A stretch of DNA of 64,000 nt from an uncultured Chloroflexia bacterium. Lineage in GTDB: Bacteria > Chloroflexota > Anaerolineae > JAAEKA01. Shown piece by piece: positions 1 through 64,000 of this stretch. Positions within the stretch are counted from its first letter, which is position 1. Every line of letters starts with the position of its first letter. The translations under genes and the position numbers were made by a program. The notes under the pieces were generated by a model. The model was not told where the DNA came from, made no database searches, and was given only the letters and a program-made list of their open reading frames with translations. The stretch covers positions 1 to 64,000 of the forward strand of contig CAVPXC010000010.1 in the NCBI GenBank assembly GCA_963709505.1, in the 5' to 3' direction.

Positions 1-80
1 CCTTTGTTCAAAGTGTGCCAGAGTCATTCTGGCTGTCAGACATTAACAATTGTCAATTGTCAATTGTCAATTGACAATTG

Positions 81-710
81 TTAATGATCGAGCGTATCGG
101 CAGCGCAGCGTATCATCAGTGTTGATGATGTTGCGCCGGGATCTTGATGGCCGATGCTGCGTTCGCCCAGGTAGCTGGCGCGGCCTTTTGTCGCCAGCAT
201 GGGAATCGTCGCCTTCATGCCCTGTTCGGCGGCGGCGGCTCCGGCTTCCAGGATCTCGTGCAGGCTGGCGCCGCCGTCTACCTTGCTGCGCATGGCCTGG
301 CATGCGGGGGTCAAGGCATCAACCATCGTCTTTTCACCGGTGGTCGCCTTGCCGCGTTGCTGAACGCCGGCCAGGCCGGCCTCGAAGGCCGCCACCAGAT
401 CAGCGTCAGCCAACTCGCTTTTGCCGTCGACCGTCATGCCGGCGCGCATGAAAAACGTACCGTAGAGCGGCCCGCCGGCCCCGCCCACTGTCGAGACGAG
501 GGTCATCCCTGCCGTCTTGAGGATCGTGCCAATGTCCTTGTCGGCGACCGTCGGCAGCTTCTCGACGACAGCGGCAAACCCGCGGTCCATGTTAGCGCCG
601 TGGTCGGCGTCGCCAATGGCCGAGTCCAGCCTGGTCAGGTAGTCTTTGTTCTCTGCAAGCACCTGGCGATAGCAGCGTAGCCAGGACAGGATTGCGTCTC
701 GTGTGATCAC
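81..710 (-). CDS. dhaL: dihydroxyacetone kinase, ADP-binding subunit DhaL
   Basis: 209 aa ORF with a typical DhaL helical domain (LTRLDSAIGDADHGANM motif), immediately downstream of dhaK in the same orientation. Confidence 0.8.
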   Translation of the reverse strand: MITRDAILSWLRCYRQVLAENKDYLTRLDSAIGDADHGANMDRGFAAVVEKLPTVADKDIGTILKTAGMTLVSTVGGAGGPLYGTFFMRAGMTVDGKSELADADLVAAFEAGLAGVQQRGKATTGEKTMVDALTPACQAMRSKVDGGASLHEILEAGAAAAEQGMKATIPMLATKGRASYLGERSIGHQDPGATSSTLMIRCAADTLDH

Positions 711-16558: not shown

Positions 16559-16603
16559 ATCGAGTCACCTCATTCGCAATTGACAATTGACAATTGACAA
16601 TTG

Positions 16604-17908
16604 TTACGATCCCCATCCTTTGGTAAACACCGGCCCCTCTTGGGCGGCAGGCTTGCGCAGCCGATAAATCCAGCGGATGATCTCCGGCGCGGCGATGAAG
16701 ACGATCACCAAGGCGATCACGATCGTGACGATGTCCACCGGGATCCGCGCGACCGATTGCATGCGGGTGGCGCCGTTTTTCAACGTGCCAAACAGCAGGG
16801 CGGCGAACAGCACGCCCACGGGATGGTTCTTACCCAGCAGCGCCAGGGCAATGGCGTCGAAGCCCATGCCGGCGGAAAAGCCCACGCCTACCCAGCGGTC
16901 CACCGCGAGCGTCTGCACCATCCCGGCCGTGCCCGCCAGCCCACCGCTGATGAGCATGATGACAATCCACAGTCGCTTTACATTTATACCGCTATACCTG
17001 GCGGCCTTGGGATTGGCGCCGACCATGCGGATTTGAAAACCCAGCGTGGATCGATACAAGATCCACCAGATCAGCCATACCGTGAAAAGCGCCAGAAAGA
17101 AGCCGGCATGGAAACGGTTGCCTGGCGTGGTGAAGAACCTTGGAATCCAGGCTGTAGCCAGGACAGGCGGGGTGACTGGCACATCGGGCCGAGCCATGGG
17201 ACCGCCCACTTTGAGCAGCCAGGCACTCAGGCTGATGGCGATCCAGTTCATCATGATGGAGTTGATGACCTCGTGCGCACCCGTGTAGGCTTTTAGCGCG
17301 CCCACGATCCCTGCCCAAATAGCGCCGCCAGCGATCCCCGCCAGCATCGCCAGCGGCAGATGGATGATCCACGGCAAGCCGGTGACCTTGAAGCCCACGT
17401 AGACCGCGCAGAGCGCCCCGACCAGCATCTGGCCCTCGCCGCCGATATTAAACAGCCCCCCTTGGAATGCGAACGCGACCGCCAGGCCGGCAAAAATATA
17501 GGGTACGGACTGGGTCAAGCTTTCGGATAAGGGGACCAAGGCAATGGCCAACTGCTGGGTGCCTTCACCGCTCAGCATAGCGCCGATGCCTCGAATGATG
17601 CCGCCGATGTTCAGCGATCCGTTGAGCATGGCGCCATAGGCCGTGGCCACCGTCTGTACCGTGATCTTCAACGCACCCATAGGGTCGTCGAAGAAGTGCA
17701 GCCAGGCGTTGACGACGTCTTTATCGGTCACCAGAATCAGAATGGCGCCGATGACCAAGGCGGTGAAGACGGCCAAGACTGGATAGAGGATCGCATCGAG
17801 CACCCGTGAACGCTTGGGTTTCGACTGGCCGCTGGCGGCTTGAGGAGTGGCAACAGGTACGGTCGATTCGGACATCCTAGTCCTCCTGGTTGATAAAAAC
17901 CTGAGCAA
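16604..17908 (-). CDS. ABC transporter permease (YufP/NupP-like)
   Basis: 434 aa multi-TM permease. Confidence 0.75.
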   Translation of the reverse strand: MLRFLSTRRTRMSESTVPVATPQAASGQSKPKRSRVLDAILYPVLAVFTALVIGAILILVTDKDVVNAWLHFFDDPMGALKITVQTVATAYGAMLNGSLNIGGIIRGIGAMLSGEGTQQLAIALVPLSESLTQSVPYIFAGLAVAFAFQGGLFNIGGEGQMLVGALCAVYVGFKVTGLPWIIHLPLAMLAGIAGGAIWAGIVGALKAYTGAHEVINSIMMNWIAISLSAWLLKVGGPMARPDVPVTPPVLATAWIPRFFTTPGNRFHAGFFLALFTVWLIWWILYRSTLGFQIRMVGANPKAARYSGINVKRLWIVIMLISGGLAGTAGMVQTLAVDRWVGVGFSAGMGFDAIALALLGKNHPVGVLFAALLFGTLKNGATRMQSVARIPVDIVTIVIALVIVFIAAPEIIRWIYRLRKPAAQEGPVFTKGWGS

Positions 17909-31323: not shown

Positions 31324-31430
31324 GAATTGTCAATTGGGAATTGGGAATTGTCAATGGTTAATGGCGGATCCGGATTCCGGAAATTCGCCATTGACAATTC
31401 TCAATTCCCAATTGACAATTCGAACGATTT
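31324..31430. repeat. ~105-bp palindromic element built from CAATTG/GAATTG heptamer repeats centred on GGATCC
   Basis: Arms gaattgtcaattgggaattgggaattgtcaatgg and its near-perfect inverse. Confidence 0.75.
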
Positions 31431-34995: not shown

Positions 34996-35844
34996 GTGAC
35001 GATTCTCGTCGGTCTCATCGGTTGGCCGCTCGGACACAGCGTCAGCCCCGCGATGCACAATGCCGCATTCCAGACGCTGGGGCTGGACGGCCGCTATGAG
35101 GCGCTCCCTGTGCCGCCGGAGCAGGTGGGCGACCTTGTTCGTAGCCTACATGCCCGCGGTTTTCGCGGCGTCAATGTCACGATTCCGTACAAACAAGCCG
35201 TCATGCCGCTAATGGACGAGCTGAGCGAGGCCGCGCAGCGCATCGGCGCGGTCAACACGATTGTCGTCGAGCCGGATGGCCGCCTGCGCGGCGACAACAC
35301 GGACTGGTTGGGATTTCTTCATCCCCTGGACGAACGCGGCTTTGACCTGGCCGATAAGTCCGTTCTGCTGCTCGGCGCCGGCGGCGCGGCTCGTGCTGTG
35401 GTCTATGCGCTGCTGCAGCGCAATATCGCGCGTCTCACCATCTGGAACCGTAGTCTGGACCGCGCGGAAGCGCTTGCTAGGCACGCTGCGACTCTGGACT
35501 CTTTATTGACAATTGACAATTGTGAATTGTCAATTGTCAATTCCGACCTGATCGTCAATTCCACCCCTATCGGCATGTGGCCGCACATCAACGAGTCGCC
35601 GTGGCCGGCCGATTTGTCCTTTCCATCCCGCGCGCTGGTCTACGACCTGGTGTACCGGCCGGAGCAGACGCAGTTCTTACGTCAGGCTGAGGCCGCCGGT
35701 TGCTCGGTGCAGGGAGGGATGGAGATGTTGGTCGTGCAGGGAGCGGCCGCGTTCAGGCTTTGGACGGGACATTATCCGTCGTTGGGCGTGATGATGACGA
35801 CAGCCCGCTACGTAGTGGCAGGTACAGAGGAGGATGATTCATAA
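34996..35844 (+). CDS. aroE: shikimate dehydrogenase
   Basis: GTG start after AGGAG; VGLIGWPLGHSVSP and NVTIPYK motifs. Carries an in-frame CAATTG-repeat insertion at 35505-35546. Confidence 0.75.
   Translation: MTILVGLIGWPLGHSVSPAMHNAAFQTLGLDGRYEALPVPPEQVGDLVRSLHARGFRGVNVTIPYKQAVMPLMDELSEAAQRIGAVNTIVVEPDGRLRGDNTDWLGFLHPLDERGFDLADKSVLLLGAGGAARAVVYALLQRNIARLTIWNRSLDRAEALARHAATLDSLLTIDNCELSIVNSDLIVNSTPIGMWPHINESPWPADLSFPSRALVYDLVYRPEQTQFLRQAEAAGCSVQGGMEMLVVQGAAAFRLWTGHYPSLGVMMTTARYVVAGTEEDDS
35505..35546. repeat. CAATTG heptamer repeat inserted in-frame inside aroE (encodes LTIDNCELSIVNS)
   Basis: ttgacaattgacaattgtgaattgtcaattgtcaattcc within the CDS at a position where homologues have a short loop. 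Confidence 0.7.
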
Positions 35845-35944: not shown

Positions 35945-36960
35945 ATGATCACCACGCAGACGCTTCCCTACCGGGGCAGTAAAGCCCTGGCCGATGAACT
36001 GAATAAGGAAAGCGCCAGGCACTACAACGCAACGCTTTCCAACCATTGGCGCACCTTCCGCAAGAAGGGCGTGTGGCTCTCCGAAAAGTCGGCCTACCGC
36101 TGGGAGGACTACCAGTCGGATGGCACGATCCTACACGCGCACAGTCGGGATGCGGCCCAGCAGGCGTTCTATCGGTCGTGCAAGACGGCGAGAACCCTCA
36201 AACGGAACGGGAACACGGCAGCGCGCTATCCCAAGTATCGCCGGGGCTTTAGAACCACGATCTGGAAGAATACCGGCATCCGTAAGAGCGGCAGCACCCT
36301 GCTGCTGGCTCGCGCGGGGCCTGGCTCCGATCACGGTGGCCTTCCCTGCCGCTTGGGAGACCTGTCGGGTCTTGGAAGCCCGGCTTGTGTTCGACAAGAA
36401 GTCCTACAAGTACACCTGGCACATGGTGCTCGAAGACGGTCTGGTCCCGCCAGTCGCACCGGGAGACCGGGTGCTGGCGGTGGACATGGGCGAGATCCAT
36501 CCGTCGGTCATAGCGGACACCGAGCAAGCCCTGGTGCTCTCCTGCCGAGCGCTGAGGGCTTGTAAGCAGTACGGGAACAAGCGCCGGTCGGAACTCGCTT
36601 CTTTGCGGGATCGGAAGAAGCGCGGGTCGGCCAACCGGAAGCGCATCCAGAAACGCATGAACCGCTTCAAGGCCCAACAGGAACGCCGCGAAAGGGACAT
36701 CTTGCACAAAGTCTCGCGCGCCGTGGTCGATCATGCAGTGGCCCGGCGTGCAGGCAAAATCGTCATCGGCGACGTGCGGGACGTGGCCGATGGCGTCAAC
36801 CTGGGACACCGAACGAACCAGAAGGTGTCTGGCTGGTCGCATGGGCGGCTGCGCCAGTACATCAGGTACAAGGCCGAGCATGTCGGGATCGAGGTCGTGC
36901 TGCAAGAACCATTCAAGACGCTGCCATCAGGCAGCGCGTGGAGCAGCTTGTTCGTTCCAT
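35945..36960 (+). pseudogene. tnpB: IS605/IS200-family TnpB (OrfB, RuvC-like) remnant inserted between aroE and aroC
   Basis: Split across two frames (shift near 36310). RuvC-I (VLAVDMGE) and RuvC-II (IVIGDVRDVADGVNLGHRTNQKVSGWSHGRLRQYIRYKAEHVGIEVV) are present; the C-terminal zinc finger/RuvC-III is missing. No tnpA or recognisable IS ends. Confidence 0.65.
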
Positions 36961-36975
36961 CCTGGAGGGTGTATG

Positions 36976-37320
36976 AAAAACCAGGCCGCTATTCGAGAAC
37001 GCTACCTTCGCGATCCTCTGCCGGTGCGTCTTGGTGGATTGGCTGCGAATCTGGCCCGAGTTAAGTCTATTTCCAACCACCCAAAGCATAGCGCGATAGT
37101 CGAAGGTCTTATCGATGAAAGCAAATACTTTGTCGAGTGGGCGGCTCCCGATGCAGAAGTAGATCGTCAAGCGGAGTTGGTCGCAATGCAGGTTCAACTG
37201 GCTCTCTGGCAATTGAATTGGTCAAAGATTTGGCCAGACCCGGCGGCGCGAGCTTTAGTGGCTGATCAGGCGAAAGAATGGTCGGATCAGGTACTTGCCA
37301 TGTCTGGTCTGCTGGACTAG
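36976..37320 (+). CDS. hypothetical helical protein (114 aa)
   Basis: MKNQAAIRERYLRDPLPVRLGGLAANLARV... no family recognised; 23 nt upstream of aroC. Confidence 0.35.
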   Translation, partial: KNQAAIRERYLRDPLPVRLGGLAANLARVKSISNHPKHSAIVEGLIDESKYFVEWAAPDAEVDRQAELVAMQVQLALWQLNWSKIWPDPAARALVADQAKEWSDQVLAMSGLLD

Positions 37321-53132: not shown

Positions 53133-55130
53133 TCAGAGCAGATACCAGTCCAAGAAGCGCTCCATCGTCGCATAGAAGTGCTGGAGATTGCCGATCTGCA
53201 GGAAGCCGTGGCCTTCGCCTTCGTAGACGAAAAACTCGAAGGTCTTGCCCTCGCGCTTCAGCGCTTCAACCAACTGCTCGCTCTGCTTGGGGTGGACGCG
53301 CTCGTCGTCGGCGCCGTGCAAAATCAGGAGCGGCGCCTGGATGGCGGCCACGTCGTGGATCGGCGAGCCGGCGCGGTAGCCGGCGTGGTTGGCGGCGGGG
53401 TGCCCCATCTGCCGTTCCAGGTCCTCGCGGCCGATTCGGTCACCCTGCGCCCACGAGGCCAGGATGTCGCAATCCCCGAACTTGGCCACGCCGCAGGCGA
53501 AGCGGTGCTGTGGATCGCGCGCCAGCGCTAGCAGCGCCAGGTAGCTTCCATAGCTCGCGCCGTAGATGCCCAGCCGTTGGCCGTCCACCCAATCTAAACC
53601 GGTCAGGTGATCGGCCGCGGCCAGCATGTCGTCGGTGTCCACGATGCCCCAGGCGCCGTGCAGTGCGTGTTGATGCGCTAAGCCATAGCCCGTGCTGCCG
53701 CGGAAGTTGGGCGTCAACACGGCATAGCCCTTGGCGACCAGCCACTGCACCAGGATGTCCCATGTGCGAGCGTATTCGTCGGTCGGCCCACCGTGCGGAT
53801 AGACGATGGCCGGGCAGGGTTTTTCGCTTGAGGCGGTGGGCGGACGGAACAGCAGGGCCGGGATGCTGGCACCGTGCGTGCTGGGATAGGTCACGAATTC
53901 GGGCTGAACCAGGCCGGCGCCGGCTAAGGCCGGCGGCATGGACGCCGTCAACGGCCGCGCCGCGCCCGTCGTCGCATCGACCTGGTAGATGTCGGGCGGT
54001 TCAGTAGGGCTCTCGAACTCCACGGTCAGCCAGCGCCCGTCCGGGCTCCACTGCGGCCGGCTGTGCCAGCCGGGTCCGTCCCTCAATACGGTCTCTTGGC
54101 CCGAAGCTACGTCGAGCAGACAGAGGTCGCTCGTGCCTTGGCGGTTGACGACCAAGGCGATTGTTAGGCCGTCGGGGCGCCAGGCGAAGTCTTGGATGTC
54201 GGCGTGGGTTTGGGTGAGCCCCTGAACCCCCTCCCCGGCCCTCCCCCTAGGAAGGGGAGGGGGGCTGTTGTGCATGCTGTCAAGGGGGGCACGAGCATCT
54301 TGGACCTCGCCGGCCTTTTCCTCAAGGGAGGGAGATAGAGACAGAATGTACAGCTCGCGCCAGCCGGTGCGGTTGGAGGTGAAGGCGATGGCTTTGCCGT
54401 CGGGCGACCAGCGGGGGTTTTTGTCCCAGACTGTGGCGGCGCCGGTGAGATGCGTGACCTGGCCACCGGCTGCCGGCACGATGCAAATCTCAGATCGGTT
54501 GAGATCCTCCTGCGGCTGGTAGACAAAGGCGATGAGGCTGCCGTCGGGCGACGGCTGCGGGTCGGAGACGTCGGCTTGGAAATGGGTCAGTGCTGCGGGC
54601 CAGGCGCCCTCTGGCGACGTGGCGCACAGGTTTTCGAACGTCCCCCGGCCGCTGAGGAAGTAGACGCGGCGTCCGTCCGGGCTGAAGATCGGGTTGGAAT
54701 CGCCGTGCTTGAAGTCGGTCAGCCGGCGGGCGCGGCCGGTCTCGACGTCCACTTTCCAAATGTCTTCTTGCGCCGCATAGACGAGCGATCGGCTATCCGG
54801 GCTCCAGCGCGGGGCTTCGTCCGACCAGAAGGTCTGCGCGGGGCGGTCGAAGGTCAGCCGTTGCGGCCAAGCAGCCGGCGCGCAGCCGTCGACAGGCAAA
54901 ACGTACAGATCGTTGTTGCCGTCCCGTTGCCAGACGAAGGCCACTAGCCGGCCATCCGGCGACAACGCGTGATGGATAATCAAAGGAACGCCTGTCAGCA
55001 GGTCGAGGCTCCACGGCGCGGGCATCTTTCGATCCGGCCGCGCCTGCGCCGGCCAGCCGTTGCGTTCCTCTTTCAGGATTGTTGCCTTCATGCGTTTCTC
55101 AACACCTCCTCCGGCATTAACAATTGTCAA
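53133..55130 (-). CDS. S9-family serine peptidase with N-terminal beta-propeller (TolB-like) domain
   Basis: GASYGSY nucleophile elbow, Asp/His downstream, WD40-like propeller repeats. Contains an in-frame G-rich palindromic insertion at ~54228-54272. Confidence 0.8.
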   Translation of the reverse strand: MTIVNAGGGVEKRMKATILKEERNGWPAQARPDRKMPAPWSLDLLTGVPLIIHHALSPDGRLVAFVWQRDGNNDLYVLPVDGCAPAAWPQRLTFDRPAQTFWSDEAPRWSPDSRSLVYAAQEDIWKVDVETGRARRLTDFKHGDSNPIFSPDGRRVYFLSGRGTFENLCATSPEGAWPAALTHFQADVSDPQPSPDGSLIAFVYQPQEDLNRSEICIVPAAGGQVTHLTGAATVWDKNPRWSPDGKAIAFTSNRTGWRELYILSLSPSLEEKAGEVQDARAPLDSMHNSPPPLPRGRAGEGVQGLTQTHADIQDFAWRPDGLTIALVVNRQGTSDLCLLDVASGQETVLRDGPGWHSRPQWSPDGRWLTVEFESPTEPPDIYQVDATTGAARPLTASMPPALAGAGLVQPEFVTYPSTHGASIPALLFRPPTASSEKPCPAIVYPHGGPTDEYARTWDILVQWLVAKGYAVLTPNFRGSTGYGLAHQHALHGAWGIVDTDDMLAAADHLTGLDWVDGQRLGIYGASYGSYLALLALARDPQHRFACGVAKFGDCDILASWAQGDRIGREDLERQMGHPAANHAGYRAGSPIHDVAAIQAPLLILHGADDERVHPKQSEQLVEALKREGKTFEFFVYEGEGHGFLQIGNLQHFYATMERFLDWYLL

Positions 55131-55167
55131 TTGTCAATTGTCAATTGACAATTGTTAATGCCGGAGG
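55108..55167. repeat. palindrome CCTCCGGCATTAACAATTG(TCAATTG)nACAATTGTTAATGCCGGAGG
   Basis: At the S9 start / C45 stop junction; CAATTG family. Confidence 0.75.
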
Positions 55168-56326: not shown

Positions 56327-58084
56327 TTACAGTTCTGCGCGATTTAGCTCGTCCTGCAACGCGGGCAGCCGGCGGTTCTCTTGACGGATTTGTGTAATCA
56401 GCGCGGTCCAACGTTCCGCCTGGTTCGTCTGCAGCAACAGCGCTCGAGCCCGTGCCAAGACTTGAGCCGCCTCGGCGTAACTGGTACGTCCGCGGCGATC
56501 GATGAGTTGGGTGGCGGCTTGGACATAGAGATCGATGGCGGCTTGGGGACGTTCCGCCTCGGCCGCGTGGGCAACGGCTAGCACCATATGATCCGAGGCA
56601 TAGGGGTACGCTCGCCGCAGTGTTGCCAGCGCGTCCAATGCAGAATCGATCTGGCCCTCGTGGAGGAAGATCTGTACACACACTTCATAGTGCTTGGCCT
56701 GTCGCAGTTCGTCCAGCAACGCTGGGCGAACCGTGTCCCAGTTGCCGAGCCGCTGTGCCGCCTCGCTAACTCGGACGTAAGTCTGCACATCGGGCCGTAA
56801 GGCAAAGAGCTGGCGAGACAGCCCTAGGGCCGCTTCATAGCGTTGGCCGACCATGTCGTAACTGATCAACCACTCGAACAACCGGGTATCGCGACTCTGG
56901 GGCAAACGCTCGCGGATCAAGCCCGCAACAACCTGCTCGTGGCCGGCGGCCTGAAACACGTCGACCAGGCCAAGCAAAGCATAGTCGCCAGCCTGGCGAG
57001 CTGCCTTAGTTGCCTCCTCAATCCGTTTTAGCTGCAACAGCCGCCGCACCAGATCGTTCAAGCGCCCCGTCTCGCGGCATATCCGCAGATAAGACTCGTC
57101 GTCCAGACGGTCCCCCTCAAGCTCCAGTAGGAAGCCACCGATGACGCCTCGTTTCCAGCCGCTGCTGTAACTGTCGGTATCGGACTCCGGCAGCGCGCGA
57201 CGCACCCATTCGGCGACCAGGGCTTTTTCGGTTTCGGTTGTCTCCTCGACCATAGCCGCCTGACTGCTGTCGCCGGTACCCACGCCGCCCATGGTGATGT
57301 CCCACTGCCAGATACGGAAGAGCGTCTCCAGCAAGGCGCGCCGCAGGATTGGATCGGCGGCGTGGTCCAGGCAGTCGACCAGCCCGTCCGCACACTCTGC
57401 CACGATGGCGACGAATTCGCCTTCTTCCTCGTACAGATTATGGTAGTCTTCCAGGATCACATCGGCGATGGTGGCATAGACCACGGCGGCGTTCTGCCAA
57501 TCGCCGGCCGCGGCATACTCATCGCCAGGACTGATGAGTGCCGCAACTTTTGCAGCCGCAGCGTACGACGCGCCCCATTCGCGAGGGAAGTGATCTGTCA
57601 CATGTCGCACCTGTCGTCGGATGATGTCTGCATCCAGGGGAGAAATTGCTGCGGAGCTGCCAGGCAGCGGCATCAAGACGATCAACTCGGCTTCAGGATA
57701 GGTATCGACGATCTTCACGATGATCCGGGCCAGTTCCTCCTTGCTAAGCCGAGACAGCGATTCCTCCAGATCCTTCATCTTCTGGAAACTGTCTGGGCTG
57801 GAGAGCCAGGTCAACAGCACGGCTGCGACGTGTTTGCACCGGCCGCCAGCGCCGACAGGGCACGAGCAATCGCCGAACACGATACCTTCGTCGTCGAAGG
57901 TGATCTCGACGTGGTAGGGCTGATCGGCTGATCCCCAGCACTCGGCTTTCAGAGTCGCCCCTTCCAGCCGCGGGTGCACGACCGCGCCGGATTGGGCGTA
58001 CCGTTGGCCACGGCTAAGCGACTGCGCGTCGATCCAGGAACGGATTTGCTTTTCTGTCAATTGGGGTGGAAAGCTCATGGGCAT
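56327..58084 (-). CDS. SWIM zinc-finger protein with C-terminal helical (TPR-like) region
   Basis: CxCxnCxH SWIM motif (GDCSCPVGAGGRCKHVAAVL) near the N-terminus. Confidence 0.65.
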   Translation of the reverse strand: MPMSFPPQLTEKQIRSWIDAQSLSRGQRYAQSGAVVHPRLEGATLKAECWGSADQPYHVEITFDDEGIVFGDCSCPVGAGGRCKHVAAVLLTWLSSPDSFQKMKDLEESLSRLSKEELARIIVKIVDTYPEAELIVLMPLPGSSAAISPLDADIIRRQVRHVTDHFPREWGASYAAAAKVAALISPGDEYAAAGDWQNAAVVYATIADVILEDYHNLYEEEGEFVAIVAECADGLVDCLDHAADPILRRALLETLFRIWQWDITMGGVGTGDSSQAAMVEETTETEKALVAEWVRRALPESDTDSYSSGWKRGVIGGFLLELEGDRLDDESYLRICRETGRLNDLVRRLLQLKRIEEATKAARQAGDYALLGLVDVFQAAGHEQVVAGLIRERLPQSRDTRLFEWLISYDMVGQRYEAALGLSRQLFALRPDVQTYVRVSEAAQRLGNWDTVRPALLDELRQAKHYEVCVQIFLHEGQIDSALDALATLRRAYPYASDHMVLAVAHAAEAERPQAAIDLYVQAATQLIDRRGRTSYAEAAQVLARARALLLQTNQAERWTALITQIRQENRRLPALQDELNRAEL

Positions 58085-58142
58085 AGTGACCCAACCCGTT
58101 TGGTGGCGCGACCTGATTTGTTAGGTGGCTTCAGTGTCACTG

Positions 58143-58619
58143 TTAACGCGGTCTAGCATCGCCTGGATCTCTTCGATCAGAAAAGGCAGGTTTGGCTTGG
58201 TGAAGCTCAGGCCGGGAGCGGGGATGCGGTGATGCTTGATATCGGGGGGGACATGCTTGTGGTGGGGAAGGGTAGATGCGAGTGTGGGATCGTTGGGATG
58301 CGGCTGTGAAATCGTACCAGTAGAGCTTCTCCTTTCCGCCGTAATGGACTGCACAGTAGACATCGGCTGATGGAAGTGCTTTTTGGGTGTATGGAGGGAT
58401 TGATCGCGTCACTTCGTAGCGATACGACAAGATGCATCCTTGTCGGAAGTCCAGAAGCTCATAGACACAGAGTACGATCTCTCCGCCCAAAGCCAACAGG
58501 CCTGTCAACTGCGCCAGGGAGAGGCCGGGTGGCGCTATGACCAGTGTGCTTAGTTGAATGGCGGAATAGCGAGAGGGCAGTGTGTAAACCAACTCTTCGT
58601 AGTCGGAGCGTCTCAGCAT
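58143..58619 (-). CDS. hypothetical protein (158 aa, low-complexity Pro/Arg tail)
   Basis: 10 nt downstream of the preceding small gene; region GC noticeably lower than flanks. Confidence 0.35.
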
Positions 58620-58629
58620 CGCACCCCCC

Positions 58630-58905
58630 TCAGGCTGCCATTGGCGCTGCTCGCAGTTGTTCGATCAGGGAGTGGCGTCTCAATAAATCCTGGTAGGTCT
58701 CTTGGCGCCAATGCCACGCCTTGCAGAGACCATGCCACTCCATGAAGTCATGGAAGTGCGGATCGTCGATGTCATCGAAATCAGCCAACTCCCCGGCCTC
58801 CATCGCCTTGAAGAAGTCCTCCGATCGAACCCCATATCGATCTTCGAATTTGCGCAGTTGCCACTCGATCCAATGGATTTCACGCAGAAGTTCTTTCAGT
58901 TCCAT
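58630..58905 (-). CDS. hypothetical small acidic protein (~92 aa, MELKELLREIHWIEWQLRKFEDRYGVRSEDFF...)
   Basis: Start taken at the internal Met; forms a two-gene cassette with 58143-58619. Confidence 0.4.
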   Translation of the reverse strand: MELKELLREIHWIEWQLRKFEDRYGVRSEDFFKAMEAGELADFDDIDDPHFHDFMEWHGLCKAWHWRQETYQDLLRRHSLIEQLRAAPMAA

Positions 58906-59027
58906 GACAAACTCCTTGCAAGGGTCAGAGCCAGCCTCTGTTGGACACAGTATACAGCAGGTTACGCTGAAGATCAACCGGACCGATTTGTATTAGCGAT
59001 CCTCCACCACCGCGGTCTCCTCCTCCG

Positions 59028-59498
59028 TCAGTCCCCAGGCACGCTAGCATCACCCGCGTCCGCCCGCTCTTCTTGTTCTGCAGCCAGCAGTTCAAGGCAG
59101 AAATCACGGAAACGCTCCAGGAAGACTAGATCCGCTTGCAGATAGGAGTAGATTTGCTCCACATCCACATCCCAGTACAGGTGGACCAGGCGATTGCGCA
59201 GCGAGACCATGTCGCTCATGGTGTTGGCGTAATCGGCGTCAAGGTAGCCCGCGTTCGCCAATGACTGGAACAAATCGCGCTGGGATTGCGGCTGGCCAAG
59301 GCCGTAGGTCGACACCAGGTGGCTGGAGATATCGGTGCAGGTTTCAATCGCTGCCTGCAGAGCCCTTTCGGTGGCTAGTTGCGCCGTGTAATCATCGGTG
59401 AACTCATCGAGCGTGAGATGCTGCTGTTTCTCTAACTCGCCGATGTACTGTTCTAATTTGCGCAAGCGCAGCCTGATACTCTTCTCGTTTAGCGTCAT
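59028..59498 (-). CDS. hepT: HepT (DUF86 HEPN-fold RNase toxin)
   Basis: HEPN Rx4HxY motif (LRNRLVHLYWDVD); sits downstream of and overlapping the MNT gene. Confidence 0.7.
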   Translation of the reverse strand: MTLNEKSIRLRLRKLEQYIGELEKQQHLTLDEFTDDYTAQLATERALQAAIETCTDISSHLVSTYGLGQPQSQRDLFQSLANAGYLDADYANTMSDMVSLRNRLVHLYWDVDVEQIYSYLQADLVFLERFRDFCLELLAAEQEERADAGDASVPGD

Positions 59499-59925
59499 CG
59501 CGTTGCTCCCACAGGCGTTGCACGAAGGCCTGCCAATCGCGCTCCAACACAGGCTCCAGGTCCCAATAGCGGCGGCGGATCCAGGATTTATATTCGGCCA
59601 CCCGATCCAGGGAGCGCTGCCACAGTCGCCGGCCGCTGGTGATGACCTCGAACTGGGCAGCAACAGGGGCTAGATTGAGCACGTGAAGGTCAAGCCAATC
59701 AGGCCACGACGCTGACCAACGATCCTCGAACCGCCACAGCGTTTGTGAGACGATATCTTGACGGGCGAGGACCGCGATGTCCACGTCGCTTGCCGCGTGA
59801 GTGCGTCCTTCGACCTGAGAGCCGAAGAGATACAGCGCGTCGATTTCCTGTTGATCGACCGCCCAGGCGACGAGGTGGTTCGTGAGATCGTCAAGGCCGG
59901 CGTAGGATGATGCGTGTTGGATCAT
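59404..59925 (-). CDS. mntA: MntA-type nucleotidyltransferase antitoxin
   Basis: GS-X9-SDVDIAV minimal nucleotidyltransferase motif. The track ORF has a long 3' extension overlapping hepT. Confidence 0.7.
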   Translation of the reverse strand: MIQHASSYAGLDDLTNHLVAWAVDQQEIDALYLFGSQVEGRTHAASDVDIAVLARQDIVSQTLWRFEDRWSASWPDWLDLHVLNLAPVAAQFEVITSGRRLWQRSLDRVAEYKSWIRRRYWDLEPVLERDWQAFVQRLWEQRDDAKREEYQAALAQIRTVHRRVRETAASHAR

Positions 59926-62900
59926 GGCTGCATTATAGCATAGTCGAGGTGAGATGAGCCATCCGGTTGGCTGTTTGTTCCTTCCACCACCGCGATCTCC
60001 TCCTCCGTCAGCCCGTAGAGCCGGTAGACGACTTGGTCGATCAGCCGGTCGGTGCGCTCGATCTGGGTGCGGACGGCGGCCAGCTCGCCTTGCAGCTCCT
60101 CCAGCGGCGCGAGATCGGCCGCGGGGTCGAAGACGGGGAGCTTGACGGCTTGGATCTTCTGCAAGGTGGATTTGGTCTTGCCGCCGGGGAAGGCGCCGGC
60201 ATGGGTGAACTGGTCCAGCACGGGCAGCGCATGGGTGTAGAAACGGGCCACGGACGGGTCGAGCTCGAAGCGATAGACCGGCGTCCAGGTGCGCAGGATG
60301 GTCTTGCCGTCCTCCTCGTAGAGCCAGGAAGCCCAGCCGTCGGCCGGGTTGCGGTGCTTGAGATGGGCTTGCAGCTCGACCCGCTGGCCGTCCAGCCTGA
60401 CCAACCGCAATCCCTCGACGTCGTGGCGGACGACGTCAAGACCGGAAGGGTCTGCCGAATGCACCAACTCCCCGTACTTGATCGCGTTGGCGAAGACCTT
60501 GGGCAAAGGCTGGCAGGCCGCGCCCCGATCCAGGAACTTGAAGGGGTCGAGCGCTTTCTCCAGCTTCTGGCGCTGTTTGTTCAGGTCGATCATCTGCTCG
60601 GCCAGGAAGGCCAGCAGGTCGTGGATTACGTCGGCGTGCTCCGGTTCCTGGCCGAGCTGGTGCTCGACGAAGCCCAGGACGCAGGCGTAGTCCCACTTGT
60701 CGCAGAACTGGCCGTATAGCCGCCGGCCCTTCTCGGCCAGACGTTCGCGCTCGTCGGTGGGGGTGGTGAAGACGATGCGTCTCAACGGCAAGTCCGCAAT
60801 TCGTTTACACTCACGTGATTATTCGTGCTAGTAAGACTAAATCGCCATTCGAGAAGTTGGCTATTCAAAAGCGCAAGTAGAAAATGCCCGGCCATTATAT
60901 CTGTCCCGACCACGAAGTACGAAATGCTATCGAAGCAATAGCTGGGAGTGCGGTAGGTGGAGAGAAAATCAACCTTCGCCAATTGTATCAGCGCGGCATT
61001 TCGTTGGTATCCGATTCGGTACAGCTTTGTGTGTTTGGCCCGCTCGCCTCCAACTGTCACTTAAAGCCGGCAAGATCCGGATGTTTCTCCACACCTTGAC
61101 GTGCCACGGGTTGAAACTCATAGCGCTGCACGTTTCCACCGCGCAACACCAGTGGACCTGCACTAGAAATCTCAGACAAGAGATGAACTTATAGTTGTTT
61201 CGTTGATTTCACCTTGAAAGGTCTGAAGTTGCTGCCCTAACGGCACGAACATCTCATCTGAAGTGAGCCGTAGTGCTAGAGCAAAGGACTCATTCGAGCT
61301 TAACACTGGGACAACCAAGTTGTGTGGGCTGAACCGAAGAATATCGAGCGAACTAGCCGCATACTGACCTGAAACCTCACTTAGCAGACCTCCAGGATGC
61401 GACAAAGGTGAGGCGTTTTCGAAATAATTGGCAGAAACCCGTAATACAAGTATGCAAGTAGGTAGTTTTGCTTCAGCATAATGACACGCGATCGATGGAT
61501 CGTCGTTTATTCTTCAAACACTTGATCCGTGTAATGCGTGATATGTCGCATGATGCTGACTTTCTCAGCGGAGGTATTCTCTGAATATCCGCGCAGGATC
61601 GAATCGGCAACAACTGTGACCGACGTAACTATCCTGACCGAGCCACAGCTGAAAGCGAGAACCACTGAACAGACTAATAAAGAGTCGACTACACCAGATC
61701 GGGTTGGCATAACCTGCCTTCAAGGTATCTCATACCATGGACGAGAACCTTTCACGCTCATTTTGATCAAGAACATCATACGGCGGATTCCCAATCACCG
61801 CATCGAACCCCGCCGCATCCCCTTGCAGCCGGCCGTGCGGATCGAAGAAGACCTCGGGGAACTCCAACTCCCAGTGGAAAAAGCGCCGCTCGGCCGCGAT
61901 CTGTTTGCCTTGGGCGATCAGCTCGTCCCAGCCCTGCAGGGCAAAGCCGCCGTGCAGCAGGTATTTGGCAAGCGGCTGCCACACGTCGTCGGCAATCGCC
62001 AGCCCAAAGTGGCGTGCGGTCCACAGGTCGGCCAGCAGGCGCGCCTTTTCGGTGGTCTTGCGCACGGTCTCGACGTAGATGCGCTCGGATTCGTGGACGT
62101 CGGCCAGGGTCTCGCTGCCCAGGCGCTCGATGTCGTCCATGAAACGGCTGGCGGTGCGCATCGACCCGGCGAAGGCGCTGTCGTCCAGCATGGAAAGCTG
62201 GCCGGCCTCGCGCAGCGCGGCCTCGTCGGCCTGCGCCTTGCGCGTCTTGCGCTTCTGGGCGGCGCTTGGCCCCGCGCTCGGCCCGGCAGCGTCCAACGGC
62301 AGGTCGGCGACGCGCGCGCCGATCAGCGAGTTGCCGCAGCGCAGGTGATGGTCCAGGAAGCTCAGCGGCTTGTTCTTGCTGACCGTCGCCAGCCACAGGC
62401 TCAGCTTGGCCAGCTCCACCGCCAGCGGGTTGAGGTCGACGCCGTAGATGCAGGCCTGCGCCACCCGCCGGCGCCAATAGGCGAGCTGGCTCTCGTCGCC
62501 TGCGGTCGGCCCTGCGGTGGAGGGTGGAGCGTGGAGAGTGGAGGGTGGACCCGAGGCCGGCTCCACGCTGGGTACGCCTTGCTCCACCAGGAAGCGGGCG
62601 ACGAACTCCGCGGCCGCCACCAGGAAATGGCCCGAACCCATCGCCGGATCCAGGATATTGACGTTCAGAACCGCCCGCGCCAGCTTCTCCGGGTCGCTCA
62701 CAGCGCCGCCTGCGTCGAGGAACGGCGCAGCCGCCTCGGCCAGCACCGGCCCCACCGTGTGCTCGACGATGTACTGCACGATGTAGTCGGGGGTGTAGTA
62801 GCTGCCGGTAGCCTTGCGCTCGCCTTTGTCCGTCACCAGATAAACCTGGCCAGGAAGAATGTCCGCTCCACTCTGACTCCCTCCCGCTCCGCTCTCGACT

Positions 62901-64000
62901 CCTCCCCCTCCGAGGGGGAGGGTTGGGGAGGGGGTTGGGGAAGCGGCTCAATCACTTCCTTCCCCTTAACCTTGCGCACCACCAGCGGCTCGCCCGCCAC
63001 GCGCACCTGGTATTCCAGCAGCCCCTCGTAGATGCTGCCCAGGTGGCGGATTTCCAGGTCGCGGTAGTCCACAACCTCGCGCGTGCCGGTTTTGGGATCG
63101 CGCGTGCGCGCCAGCAGGTCGATCGCCTTGCGCAGGTGCAGGTCGCCGACGCGGTGCTGCTCCAGGAAGGGATGGTTGGCCGGCTTGAACAGCCCGCCGT
63201 CGTAGGCCGGCACGCCCAGGTAGGGATCGCCGCCGTCGATCACGCGCCACAGCTCGGCCAGGCGCTGCCACAGGCTGGACATGCTGGGCGCGGCCGGTTG
63301 GCCGCTGTCGATCTCCTGGGCGATGCGCCGCTTGAGCGCCTGCAAGCTGTAGCTCTCGCGGTAGGTCGAGTTCTCCAGCACCGGCAACAGGTCGCGGTCC
63401 TCGGCGTAGAGGATGAACAGCAGCCGGTAGAGCACGATCAGGCTGTTGTCGTGGATGGCCCGCAGCGTGGTCTCGTCCGGCGTCAGGCCGTTGCCGGGGA
63501 AGTCGAGGAAGCCCTGGGCCAGGGCAGCCAACGCCTCGTAGACCTGGTCTTTCAGCCCGGCGCTGATGCCTTGCTGGTAGGCCAGGCTCTCGGCCAGCAC
63601 CAAATCCAGCCAGGCTGGCGCGCCATGGGCTGCGCTGTCGGGGAGGAAGGCCTCGCGGCGGAAGAAGAGCCAGAAATACTTGAACGCCTCGGCGTCGCCG
63701 GCCTCGATCAGCGCGGGCAGATCGACCTCGTAGTAGACGTCCAGCTTCTTGGAGGAGTCCTTGTGGTAAAGCTGCCACAGCCGGCCGTTGGTCAGCACGC
63801 CCCAGGCCAGCCCCGAATGGCGGATGTAGAAGTCGATCTGCAAGGCCGGGTTGGCGTGGAGGGTCTTGCTGCTATCGGCCGGGCCGCTGCGGTCCAGGGG
63901 CCGGTTCCACGCCTTGGCGTCGGCCACGGCCAGGGCGGCGGCCAGATCAGCCTCCGCGGCCGGGCGGTGCAGCGTCTGGATGGCGGTGCGCGTCGCCTCG
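59922..64000 (-). pseudogene. type IIG restriction-modification / PglX-like N6-adenine methyltransferase, disrupted (multiple frames), 5' end beyond window
   Basis: N-terminal/helical part (62833-64000+, open past the window edge). MTase core with GSYYTP and NPPY motifs (61730-62836). Low-GC TRD-like segment in broken frames (60792-61729; ...LLALLNSQLLEWRF...STNNHVSVNELR). C-terminal domain ending in the RLYGLTEEEIAVVEG hallmark (59922-60791). Confidence 0.6.
60792..61729 (-). other. low-GC (~48 % vs ~65 %) target-recognition-domain segment of the MTase gene
   Basis: Visible composition drop; ORF fragments 60782-61060, 61172-61405 and 61507-61710 lie in different frames. Confidence 0.6.

What the first reader, a model, noticed from the sequence alone, without database searches (positions are those of the whole stretch)
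59028..64000. Defence-type island: HepT/MNT toxin-antitoxin next to a disrupted type IIG RM / PglX-like methyltransferase with a low-GC TRD
A >4-kb minus-strand gene (5' end outside the window) has, N- to C-terminal: the N-terminal region, an Eco57I/MmeI/PglX-type N6-adenine methyltransferase core (GSYYTP ... NPPY), a ~940-bp segment at ~48 % GC encoding TRD-like peptides (LLALLNSQLLEWRF, STNNHVSVNELR) in several broken frames, and a conserved C-terminal domain ending RLYGLTEEEIAVVEG. The abrupt GC drop confined to the specificity region suggests TRD replacement by horizontal exchange. The multiple frame breaks (one coinciding with a GGGGAGG repeat insertion at ~62866-62940) suggest the system is inactivated, or the sequence is error-ridden. 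Directly downstream sits a canonical mntA-hepT (MNT/HEPN) pair, as is typical of defence islands.
Basis: partly seen in the sequence, partly recalled or inferred. Interest (0 to 1): 0.55.

Follow-up and report, generated by a model that had tools for sequence, protein, structure and literature searches.

The report
Broken type IIG restriction gene, swapped cassette
This is an ordinary single-protein restriction-modification gene with a horizontally swapped, AT-rich DNA-recognition module and a toxin-antitoxin pair inserted at its end, and its many frame breaks are more likely consensus errors of a long-read metagenome assembly than real gene decay.

Summary
A minus-strand gene (64000 to 59922, about 106-120 codons missing beyond the window) is collinear with single-ORF homologues of about 1260-1450 aa. 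These carry a PD..DxK nuclease N-terminus, a helical spacer, an Eco57I-type N6-adenine methyltransferase, a TaqI_C-like TRD and a C-terminal helical domain.

GC falls from 67% to 48% between 61780 and about 60790. The drop starts at the codon after NPPY, so it covers the second half of the methyltransferase domain as well as the TRD.

A syntenic relative (L082) is 94.5% identical up to the NPPY codons, then carries a different cassette. Intact homologues from several phyla show the same drop at the same motifs. The TRD-exchange reading is therefore supported, and it is a known phenomenon.

There are at least 13 breaks, all small indels. About 12 of them lie within the 1-kb cassette. The window also has frameshifts in housekeeping genes. 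Among about 70 homologues, seven of the eight multiply broken copies sit on 'contig_N'-named, long-read-style contigs. I therefore favour consensus error at a strain-variable cassette (about 0.6) over a true pseudogene (about 0.3).

mntA-hepT is canonical and lies between 32-45-nt direct repeats. No BREX or DISARM partner genes were found. Low novelty.

The parts
62917..64000 (-). N-terminal region of the type IIG enzyme: end of the PD..DxK nuclease domain (ADAKAW near 63920) plus an MmeI_hel-like helical spacer. The 5' end, about 106-120 codons, lies outside the window.
   Evidence: Family HMM positions 122-450 map here. tblastn to L002 residues 107-480 gives 64% identity. PADLOC DrmMI 2e-37 and REase_MTase_IIG 1e-26. 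Weak MmeI_hel match. The PD..DAK motif is seen in the L082 translation.
62863..62940 (-). G-rich, low-complexity and palindromic linker (21-nt tandem x2.3; GGGGAGG motifs) that holds one frame break.
   Evidence: TRF result. Inverted repeat I10. The HMM frame switches between 62917 and 62866. L082 has the same linker and reads through it in frame; the window differs by small indels at 3 sites.
61778..62866 (-). N-terminal half of the gamma-class N6-adenine methyltransferase domain: GSYYTP 62806-62789, DPAMGSGHF 62650-62624, NPPY 61789-61778. Contains an in-frame GGTGGAG x4.9 repeat at 62516-62549.
   Evidence: Pfam Eco57I 2.3e-17, MmeI_Mtase and N6_Mtase. Family HMM positions 453-787 at 4e-158. 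Sequence read directly. TRF result.
60790..61777 (-). Low-GC (48%) exchangeable specificity cassette: MTase motifs V-VIII plus a TaqI_C-like TRD (GGNVQRYEF, LLALLNSQLLEWRF). Interrupted by about 12-14 small indels.
   Evidence: GC change points at 61780 and 60766. Frameshift-aware alignment to P0121-P0128. Conceptual translation hits intact relatives at E=5e-66 with 100% coverage. 66/73 family-invariant residues are kept in the TRD part. Identity to L082 ends at 61777.
59922..60806 (-). High-GC C-terminal helical domain ending LYGLTEEEIAVVEG. It reads 14 extra codons into the inserted TA cassette, to the stop at 59922-59924.
   Evidence: ORF 59922-60791. Family HMM positions 1133-1307 at 7e-28. 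53% identity to the P0121 C-terminus. 60126-59979 is 94% identical to L082.
59983..60027 (.). Left copy of the direct repeat flanking the mntA-hepT insertion (codes for ..LTEEEIAVVEG).
   Evidence: Repeat family D1, 82% over 45 nt with a core of about 30/32. Three-way alignment with L082, which has a single copy and no TA pair.
59404..59925 (-). mntA: MNT nucleotidyltransferase antitoxin of a type VII toxin-antitoxin pair (GS-x10-DVD motif).
   Evidence: NCBIfam MntA_antitoxin 71.3 bits against a cut-off of 60. Pfam Polbeta 1.7e-13. Absent at this position in L082.
59028..59444 (-). hepT: HEPN RNase toxin (RNRLVH = Rx4H motif). Overlaps mntA by 41 nt.
   Evidence: NCBIfam HepT_toxin 114 bits against a cut-off of 60. 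Pfam HepT-like 7.6e-28.
59003..59047 (.). Right copy of the direct repeat. It keeps the ancestral end of the restriction gene with its stop (..VVEDR*) and continues into sequence that follows the gene directly in L082.

Best explanation
The locus is a stand-alone type IIG restriction-modification gene of the Eco57I-like family. Its closest defence-database profile is DrmMI.

**How the protein is built.** One polypeptide of about 1350 aa carries, in order:
- an N-terminal PD..DxK nuclease;
- a helical spacer;
- a gamma-class N6-adenine methyltransferase;
- a TaqI_C-like recognition domain;
- a C-terminal helical domain.

By analogy with characterised type IIG enzymes, it would read an asymmetric site, methylate one adenine and cut unmethylated DNA at a distance. 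That step is inferred, not shown.

**The exchangeable module.** The stretch from the codon after NPPY to the LPxRRIxFTTP motif (61777-60790) is an AT-rich module that this gene family swaps horizontally. The swap apparently occurs by recombination at the two motif-coding anchors. In this lineage the swap is recent: a 94%-identical relative carries a different module.

**The toxin-antitoxin pair.** An mntA-hepT type VII pair was later inserted at the gene's stop. It lies between duplicated copies of the last 32-45 nt of the gene. I read this as insertion with long target duplication, which is an inference from the repeat and from the single copy in the relative.

**The frame breaks.** There are at least 13 breaks, all small indels and none a nonsense codon. 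About 12 lie in the 1-kb module, densest near its edges. They are most likely consensus errors of a long-read metagenome assembly, made where co-existing strains carry different modules. Accumulated decay is less likely. Whether the enzyme is active in the organism is therefore open.
For: **Family and architecture**
- 29 intact homologues of 1260-1520 aa are collinear with the window gene.
- Pfam, PADLOC and NCBIfam results agree with a type IIG enzyme.
- The nuclease motif is visible.

**Cassette exchange**
- Identity to L082 is 94.5% over 2230 nt and stops exactly after GGGAATCCGCCGTAT, the GNPPY codons.
- In intact homologues of high-GC hosts the GC change point falls within 2 codons of NPPY in L003, L004, L072, L074 and L075. 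It ends at LPxRRIxFTTP in L003, L004, L006 and L007.
- Close pairs L006/L007, L017/L018 and L074/L075 share 76-92% identity in the backbone but only 21-34% in the cassette. The distant pair L037/L045 shares 71% in the cassette but 43% in the backbone.
- TRD replacement in type IIG genes, and recombination at motif-coding flanks, are published (PMC2853133, PMC3575425).

**Toxin-antitoxin insertion**
-. Long target duplication is described in PMC2853133.

**Error reading**
- Every break is explained by an indel.
- After frame correction the TRD keeps 66/73 family-invariant residues.
- The window has frameshifts inside prephenate dehydratase, an SBP_bac_5 gene and a Bmp gene.
- L082 and other contigs named in the same style are riddled with frameshifts, and L082 breaks genes that the window keeps intact.
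- Among about 70 complete homologues, 8 have two or more frame changes. Seven of those 8 are 'contig_N' long-read-style contigs, three of them from the Nanopore-only Microflora Danica set. The short-read and isolate copies examined that carry low-GC cassettes are intact (PMC12313526).
- Indels are densest at the two cassette edges and absent from 61480-61190. That is what forced alignment of reads from other alleles would produce.
Against: - I could not retrieve the source contig or any reads, so the sequencing technology of the window is inferred, not known.
- The indels are not in homopolymers.
- The neighbouring segments that also differ from L082 have no frameshift over about 1.7 kb. These are the C-terminal domain 60790-60126 and mntA-hepT. 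A pure 'low coverage of strain-specific DNA' model would predict some errors there too.
- The first 100 codons after NPPY keep only 20/34 invariant residues, which could be real decay.
- No independent copy of this cassette exists in the searched collections. The best are 57% local and 50-56% aa identity, so no indel could be checked directly.
- Restriction genes are often true pseudogenes.
Confidence: 0.6

Rival explanations
1. The gene is a true pseudogene. After acquiring a foreign low-GC specificity cassette, the restriction gene was inactivated and the cassette has since accumulated many indels, so the system is dead in the organism.
For: - There are at least 13 frame breaks in the sequence as given.
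- The indels are not at homopolymers.
- Invariant MTase residues such as AFPQK are lost in 61778-61480.
- Adjacent strain-specific segments are clean, so local sequence quality is not uniformly poor.
- A few isolate or short-read homologues carry one or two frameshifts (L032, L034, L078), so real inactivation does occur in this family.
Against: - Neutral decay should hit the whole gene, yet the 3.1 kb of flanking coding sequence has one break against about 12 in 1 kb.
- No nonsense codon is needed after frame correction.
- The TRD keeps 90% of family-invariant residues, which does not fit the amount of substitution that usually accompanies a dozen indels.
- The window demonstrably carries indel errors in housekeeping genes.
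- Multiply broken copies of the family are nearly confined to long-read-style contigs.
Confidence: 0.3
2. The gene is the methyltransferase component of a multi-gene defence system, either BREX PglX or DISARM class 1 DrmMI, rather than a self-contained restriction enzyme.
For: - The best PADLOC profile is DrmMI: PDLC02643 at 2.9e-63 for the MTase piece and 2e-37 for the N-terminus.
- NCBIfam reports only PglX models, all weakly.
- One distant homologue is named PglX by its source.
Against: - PglX models score 43-134 bits against cut-offs of 400-900.
- No helicase/DUF1998/PLD/SNF2 or PglZ/BrxC/BrxL genes occur in the about 10 kb downstream in the window.
- None occur in the 8 kb upstream in syntenic L082, nor around L001 and L083.
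- The N-terminus has a PD..DAK nuclease motif and matches type IIG profiles.
Confidence: 0.05
3. The dense indels confined to the specificity cassette are real and come from a targeted diversification or mutagenesis process acting on the recognition module.
For: - Indel density is more than 100-fold above the window background and is limited to the cassette.
- Several relatives on 'contig_N' contigs also concentrate frame changes in their low-GC segments.
Against: - No repeat, recombinase, reverse transcriptase or template copy lies nearby.
- All accurately sequenced homologues examined that carry low-GC cassettes are intact.
- The pattern tracks assembly style, not taxonomy.
Confidence: 0.03

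Closest known systems
Type IIG restriction-modification enzymes of the Eco57I / MmeI / BpuSI kind (single-chain nuclease-methyltransferase-TRD)
   Same: - Order of domains: an N-terminal PD-(D/E)xK-type motif (PD..DAK), an MmeI_hel-like spacer, a gamma-class N6-adenine MTase (Pfam Eco57I, MmeI_Mtase) and a TaqI_C-like TRD in one polypeptide.
- PADLOC REase_MTase_IIG profiles match the N-terminus, the MTase and the C-terminus.
   Different: - It is about 300-400 aa longer than Eco57I, MmeI or BpuSI (sizes from my own knowledge), with an extra C-terminal helical domain of 170-290 aa that has no Pfam family.
- No solved structure is close by sequence. The best matches are 2e-14 to orphan MTases, over the MTase C-half and TRD only.
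- Cleavage and methylation were not tested.
DrmMI, the N6-adenine methyltransferase of DISARM class 1
   Same: It is the highest-scoring defence profile over both the N-terminal region and the MTase, so the proteins are close homologues.
   Different: DISARM is defined by the accompanying drmA, drmB and drmC genes, with drmD in class 1 (own knowledge; Ofir et al. 2018). None is present in the window, in L082, or around L001 and L083.
Allelic TRD replacement and TRD movement in type IIG and type III methyltransferase genes (Furuta, Abe and Kobayashi 2010; Furuta and Kobayashi 2012)
   Same: - Closely related genomes share the gene backbone but differ in the recognition region.
- Recombination is proposed at DNA that encodes conserved MTase motifs flanking the TRD.
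- Here the 5' junction lies at the NPPY codons and the 3' junction at LPxRRIxFTTP.
   Different: - The exchanged unit includes MTase motifs V-VIII.
- It is markedly AT-rich inside high-GC hosts of several bacterial and archaeal phyla. As far as I read, those papers did not describe this for this family.
MntA-HepT type VII toxin-antitoxin modules, and insertion with long target duplication next to restriction genes
   Same: - Both genes exceed the NCBIfam equivalog cut-offs and carry the GSx10DxD and Rx4H motifs.
- The pair lies between 32-45-nt direct repeats of the target, as described for insertions with long target duplication.
   Different: - The published cases concern insertion of restriction genes themselves. 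Here a toxin-antitoxin pair is the inserted unit, and the target is the 3' end of a restriction gene.
- MntA is 173 aa, with a C-terminal extension beyond the 106-position model.

Membership tests
Type IIG restriction-modification enzyme | Nuclease and methyltransferase in one polypeptide: an N-terminal PD-(D/E)xK catalytic motif | tested here: inconclusive
   The window shows only the DAK half (ADAKAW, about 63920); the PD half lies beyond 64000. The full motif (VPDY...ADAKAW) is present in 94%-identical L082 and in L002, L003 and L019. No curated nuclease profile matched. PADLOC type IIG profiles cover the region.
Type IIG restriction-modification enzyme | Gamma-class N6-adenine methyltransferase motifs (motif I, and NPPY as motif IV) | tested here: met
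   DPAMGSGHF at 62650-62624 and NPPY at 61789-61778. Pfam Eco57I 64 bits against a cut-off of 25.3; MmeI_Mtase 31.2 bits against 27.
Type IIG restriction-modification enzyme | Target recognition domain fused C-terminally in the same chain | tested here: met
   The Pfam TaqI_C match is weak in the raw ORF (E=0.0074). After frame correction the region aligns over 100% of its length to intact relatives at E=5e-66. TaqI_C reaches 2e-13 in homologue L003.
Type IIG restriction-modification enzyme | One uninterrupted reading frame | tested here: not met
   At least 13 frame changes in the sequence as given. Whether they exist in the organism is unresolved.
Type IIG restriction-modification enzyme | Site-specific m6A methylation and cleavage at a fixed distance | not testable with these tools
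   Needs a methylome or biochemistry.
BREX PglX | Score above the PglX family cut-off | tested here: not met
   BREX_1 43 bits against a cut-off of 500 for the window piece. The best PglX scores of intact homologues L002 and L003 are 89.7 and 134 bits, both on BREX_2 (cut-off 400).
BREX PglX | Neighbouring pglZ, brxC and brxL genes | tested here: not met
   None downstream in the window. None in the 8 kb upstream in syntenic L082.
DISARM class 1 DrmMI | Sequence similarity to DrmMI profiles | tested here: met
   PDLC02643 at 2.9e-63 (MTase) and 2e-37 (N-terminus); 7e-117 for L002.
DISARM class 1 DrmMI | Operon partners drmA (helicase), drmB (DUF1998), drmC (PLD) and drmD (SNF2) | tested here: not met
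   Absent from the window's downstream genes and from the called genes of L082, L001 and L083.
MntA-HepT type VII toxin-antitoxin | Both proteins above the equivalog cut-offs, with adjacent overlapping genes | tested here: met
   MntA 71.3 bits and HepT 114 bits, each against a cut-off of 60. The genes overlap by 41 nt.
MntA-HepT type VII toxin-antitoxin | Catalytic motifs GSx10DxD (MNT) and Rx4-6H (HEPN) | tested here: met
   LFGSQVEGRTHAASDVDIAV and RNRLVH are read in the translations.

The most novel reading that the evidence does not exclude
The roughly 100-fold excess of small indels confined to the exchangeable specificity cassette is real. Relatives on long-read-style contigs show smaller excesses in their own cassettes. 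On this reading the excess reflects a process that targets, or preferentially destabilises, newly acquired AT-rich recognition modules in high-GC hosts. It would be a form of localised inactivation or diversification of restriction specificity.

A tamer and much more probable version (about 0.6) needs no new mechanism. The NPPY-to-LPxRRIxFTTP module is an AT-rich cassette that circulates across bacterial and archaeal phyla and is swapped at two motif-coding anchors.
Probability: 0.05. Interest if true: 0.6.

Novelty: new member of a known kind. Interest (0 to 1): 0.2.

Why it matters
It matters little for biology at large.
- The gene family, TRD swapping, recombination at motif-coding flanks, insertion with long target duplication and MntA-HepT modules are all described already.

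Two practical points are worth keeping.
- **Codon-sharp exchange unit.** The unit runs from just after NPPY to LPxRRIxFTTP. It is seen in Chloroflexota, Armatimonadota and haloarchaea, and could guide engineering of specificity chimeras in this under-studied family of about 1300-aa type IIG/DrmMI-like enzymes.
- **Caution for defence-system surveys.** Strain-variable cassettes in long-read-only metagenome assemblies can appear as heavily 'pseudogenised' genes. Counts of inactive restriction systems from such data may be inflated.

Tried and rejected
- **Source contig.** I tried to fetch the window's own contig and upstream sequence by exact protein look-up. P0001 is in the collection but no gene position is on record, and four other window proteins were not found. 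A genome-contig scan did not contain the source species either.
- **Non-coding RNA.** An Rfam scan of the whole window found nothing, so the low-GC segment gives no hint of an intron or ribozyme.
- **In-frame stops.** I first read the segment as one frame with TGA/TGA/TAA stops, which would have pointed to real nonsense mutations. Frameshift-aware alignment showed these are out-of-frame artefacts and that indels explain every break.
- **Independent copy of the cassette.** I looked for one to check each indel. The best were 57% aa locally in the protein collection, 50-56% in JGI metagenomes and 67% nt to L004. All are too distant.
- **Homopolymers.** The indels are not at homopolymer runs, and run density in the cassette is no higher than in the flanks. 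This does not separate the two explanations.
- **Assembly chimera at NPPY.** Rejected, because the sequence returns to the same genome downstream: 60126-59979 and 59034 onward are 88-94% identical to L082.
- **BREX and DISARM membership.** Rejected.
- **Sample accessions.** I tried to tie the ERZ2503... accessions to the Microflora Danica long-read study through its supplements, but none are held.

Full report
**1. What is in the sequence**

On the minus strand, the region from 64000 to 59922 holds pieces of one large gene.
- An ORF open to the window end (62833-63999) encodes the N-terminus.
- ORF 61730-62836 carries GSYYTP (62806-62789), DPAMGSGHF (62650-62624) and NPPY (61789-61778). It matches Pfam Eco57I (2.3e-17), MmeI_Mtase and N6_Mtase.
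- ORF 59922-60791 ends in RLYGLTEEEIAVVEG.
- Between the last two lies about 1 kb with only short ORFs.

GC is 62-73% in the flanks and 46-52% in the middle. A two-change-point fit places the drop at 61780-60766, at 48% against 67%.

mntA (59404-59925) and hepT (59028-59444) follow. Both exceed their NCBIfam equivalog cut-offs, at 71 and 114 bits against 60, and both carry the GSx10DxD and Rx4H motifs.

**2. What the gene is**

A scan of one genome per species returned 80 loci. In most of them the homologue is a single ORF of 1260-1520 aa.

A profile built from 29 full-length copies maps collinearly onto the window:
- positions 122-450 at 63954-62917;
- positions 453-787 at 62866-61760;
- weaker pieces through the low-GC region;
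- positions 1133-1307 at 60806-59967.

About 106-120 N-terminal codons lie beyond the window.

Full-length homologues show Eco57I, N6_Mtase, MmeI_Mtase and TaqI_C domains plus a weak MmeI_hel match. Their N-termini carry a PD...DAK motif (TPDYVFF...GDAKAW). The window shows only the DAK half, while the 94%-identical relative L082 shows both halves.

PADLOC ranks DrmMI first and type IIG profiles next. NCBIfam lists only PglX models, all far below their cut-offs. By sequence, no solved structure is close.

No DISARM or BREX partner genes occur:
- downstream in the window;
- in the 8 kb upstream of the gene in syntenic L082, which instead has TIR_2 and FGE-sulfatase genes and ParE/CopG toxin-antitoxin genes;
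- around L001 and L083.

I therefore file it as a stand-alone type IIG-like enzyme homologous to DrmMI. It is not a PglX.

**3. The low-GC segment is an exchanged cassette**

L082 is an ENA contig syntenic with the window.
- It is 94.5% identical from 64000 to 61777, and the identity stops at the last base of the GNPPY codons.
- L082 then carries 1.67 kb of unrelated, lower-GC sequence. This encodes its own MTase C-half, TRD and C-terminal end.
- After that comes a 148-nt remnant of the resident C-terminal end, 94% identical to window 60126-59979.

The window's own cassette, once frames are corrected, aligns over its full length to intact proteins (E=5e-66, 39-41% identity overall). These include a Phormidium protein and the intact 1351-aa gene of L004.

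The pattern is a family trait.
- In intact genes of high-GC hosts, GC3 falls from 72-94% to 34-58% in the roughly 336 codons after NPPY.
- The fitted 5' change point lies within 2 codons of NPPY in L003, L004, L072, L074 and L075.
- The 3' change point lies at LPxRRIxFTTP in L003, L004, L006 and L007.
- Three close pairs share the backbone but not the cassette: L006/L007 at 84% against 26%, L017/L018 at 92% against 34%, and L074/L075 at 76% against 21%.
- A Clostridia/Nitrospirae pair (L037/L045) shares the cassette (71%) but not the backbone (43%).

This is TRD replacement by recombination at motif-coding flanks, as already described for type IIG and type III genes (PMC2853133, PMC3575425).

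**4. The mntA-hepT pair is an insertion**

L082 lacks the pair. There, the end of the restriction gene (..VVEGR*) runs straight into the sequence found at window 59034 and below.

In the window the pair sits between two copies of the last 32-45 nt of the restriction gene (59983-60027 and 59003-59047). As a result the restriction ORF now reads 14 extra codons into the insert, and the old stop survives after hepT. This matches 'insertion with long target duplication'.

Further differences from L082 mark the region as a variable island:
- a different small gene set at 58325-58921;
- a TumE-like toxin;
- the N-terminus of a SWIM-domain protein that matches candidate defence family PDC-S62.

**5. 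Are the frame breaks real?**

Frameshift-aware alignment to five intact relatives needs about 12-14 indels of 1-2 nt in 61778-60790 and no stop codon. They are distributed as follows:
- at least 8 in 61778-61480;
- none in 61480-61190;
- single events at about 61186, 61058, 60988, 60958, 60950 and 60796.

One more break lies in the G-rich linker. L082 has the same linker and reads through it in frame, so the linker is not itself the lesion.

After correction the TRD keeps 66/73 family-invariant residues. The first 100 codons keep 20/34.

*Points in favour of error*
- The window has frameshifts inside a chorismate mutase/prephenate dehydratase gene (about 29430), an SBP_bac_5 gene (about 50310) and a Bmp-type gene (about 22870). 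That is a background of about 0.05-0.1 per kb, so the assembly is imperfect.
- The closest relatives come from ENA assemblies with Flye-style contig names. They are full of frameshifts, including in genes that are intact in the window.
- Of about 70 complete homologues, eight have two or more frame changes. Seven of these are 'contig_N' long-read-style contigs. Three are Microflora Danica MAGs, which are Nanopore-only with one round of Medaka polishing (PMC12313526).
- The short-read and isolate copies examined that carry low-GC cassettes are intact.
- A dozen indels with no nonsense codon, confined to 1 kb of a 4-kb gene and densest at the cassette edges, fits a consensus built from reads of strains carrying different cassettes. 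It does not fit neutral decay.

*Points against error*
- The indels are not at homopolymers.
- The adjacent strain-specific 1.7 kb is clean.
- I could not obtain reads or the source record.
- No close copy of the cassette exists for comparison.

I put consensus error at about 0.6, a true pseudogene at about 0.3, and other explanations at about 0.1.

**6. Mechanism (inferred)**

If intact, the enzyme would bind an asymmetric site through the TaqI_C-like TRD, methylate one adenine using the NPPY active site, and cut unmodified DNA with the N-terminal PD..DxK domain. Swapping the cassette changes the site it recognises.

MntA would neutralise the HepT RNase by nucleotidylylation, which is established for the family but not tested here.

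**7. Verdict**

- The TRD-exchange idea is supported, but it is already a known phenomenon.
- The BREX reading is rejected.
- 'Inactivated' is doubtful.

This is an ordinary member of a known kind, with a useful caution about long-read metagenome consensus at strain-variable cassettes.

Noticed in passing
window 41-86, 724-762, 16577-16606, 31325-31420, 35505-35545, 55108-55167; also L082 3456-3552 and 15812-15879: AT-rich palindromic repeats built from 7-nt units CAATTGT/CAATTGA (for example ATTAACAATTGTCAATTGTCAATTGTCAATTGACAATTGTTAAT). They sit at six sites in a 60-70% GC genome and are shared with the relative. They look like a REP-like or terminator-like element family.
   Followed up: partly
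window ~29430, ~50310, ~22870: Frameshifts split three ordinary genes. Chorismate mutase/prephenate dehydratase has PDT profile 1-39 in one ORF and 38-179 in the next. An SBP_bac_5 transporter protein has profile 2-101 and 86-354. A Bmp/PnrA-like binding protein has profile 6-125 and 154-270. This is evidence that the assembly carries indel errors.
   Followed up: yes
window 58121-58977: A TumE-like toxin is split between two frames near 58330 (Pfam TumE 44-79/81 in ORF 58121-58363). It is preceded by a 115-aa ORF (58630-58977) with no family match, possibly its antitoxin. L082 has an intact-looking TumE gene at the matching place.
   Followed up: partly
window 56327-58084: A 585-aa SWIM zinc-finger protein matches the PADLOC candidate defence family PDC-S62 (9e-20). 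Its N-terminal kb has no counterpart in L082, which has a small nucleotidyltransferase gene there instead.
   Followed up: no
window 36120-37064: A TnpB-like gene (OrfB_IS605, with the Cas12f1-like TNB domain cut off at 27/60) appears frameshifted near 36300. It is either an IS605-family remnant or another consensus error.
   Followed up: no
L082 11897-12271 and 12438-12572: The relative carries two C-terminal ends in tandem. One belongs to the incoming cassette, and the other is a 148-nt remnant of the resident gene. This suggests the cassette entered by one homologous junction (at NPPY) and one illegitimate junction.
   Followed up: partly
window 62516-62549: An in-frame GGTGGAG x4.9 tandem repeat encodes a Pro/Ser/Thr-rich loop (PPSTLHAPPST) inside the methyltransferase domain, between motif I and the next conserved block. 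The loop is about 17 aa longer than in L002.
   Followed up: no
loci L037 and L045: A Clostridia MAG and a Nitrospirae MAG share a 71%-identical specificity cassette, while their enzyme backbones are 43% identical and their C-terminal domains 19%. This is a clear case of cross-phylum cassette sharing.
   Followed up: no
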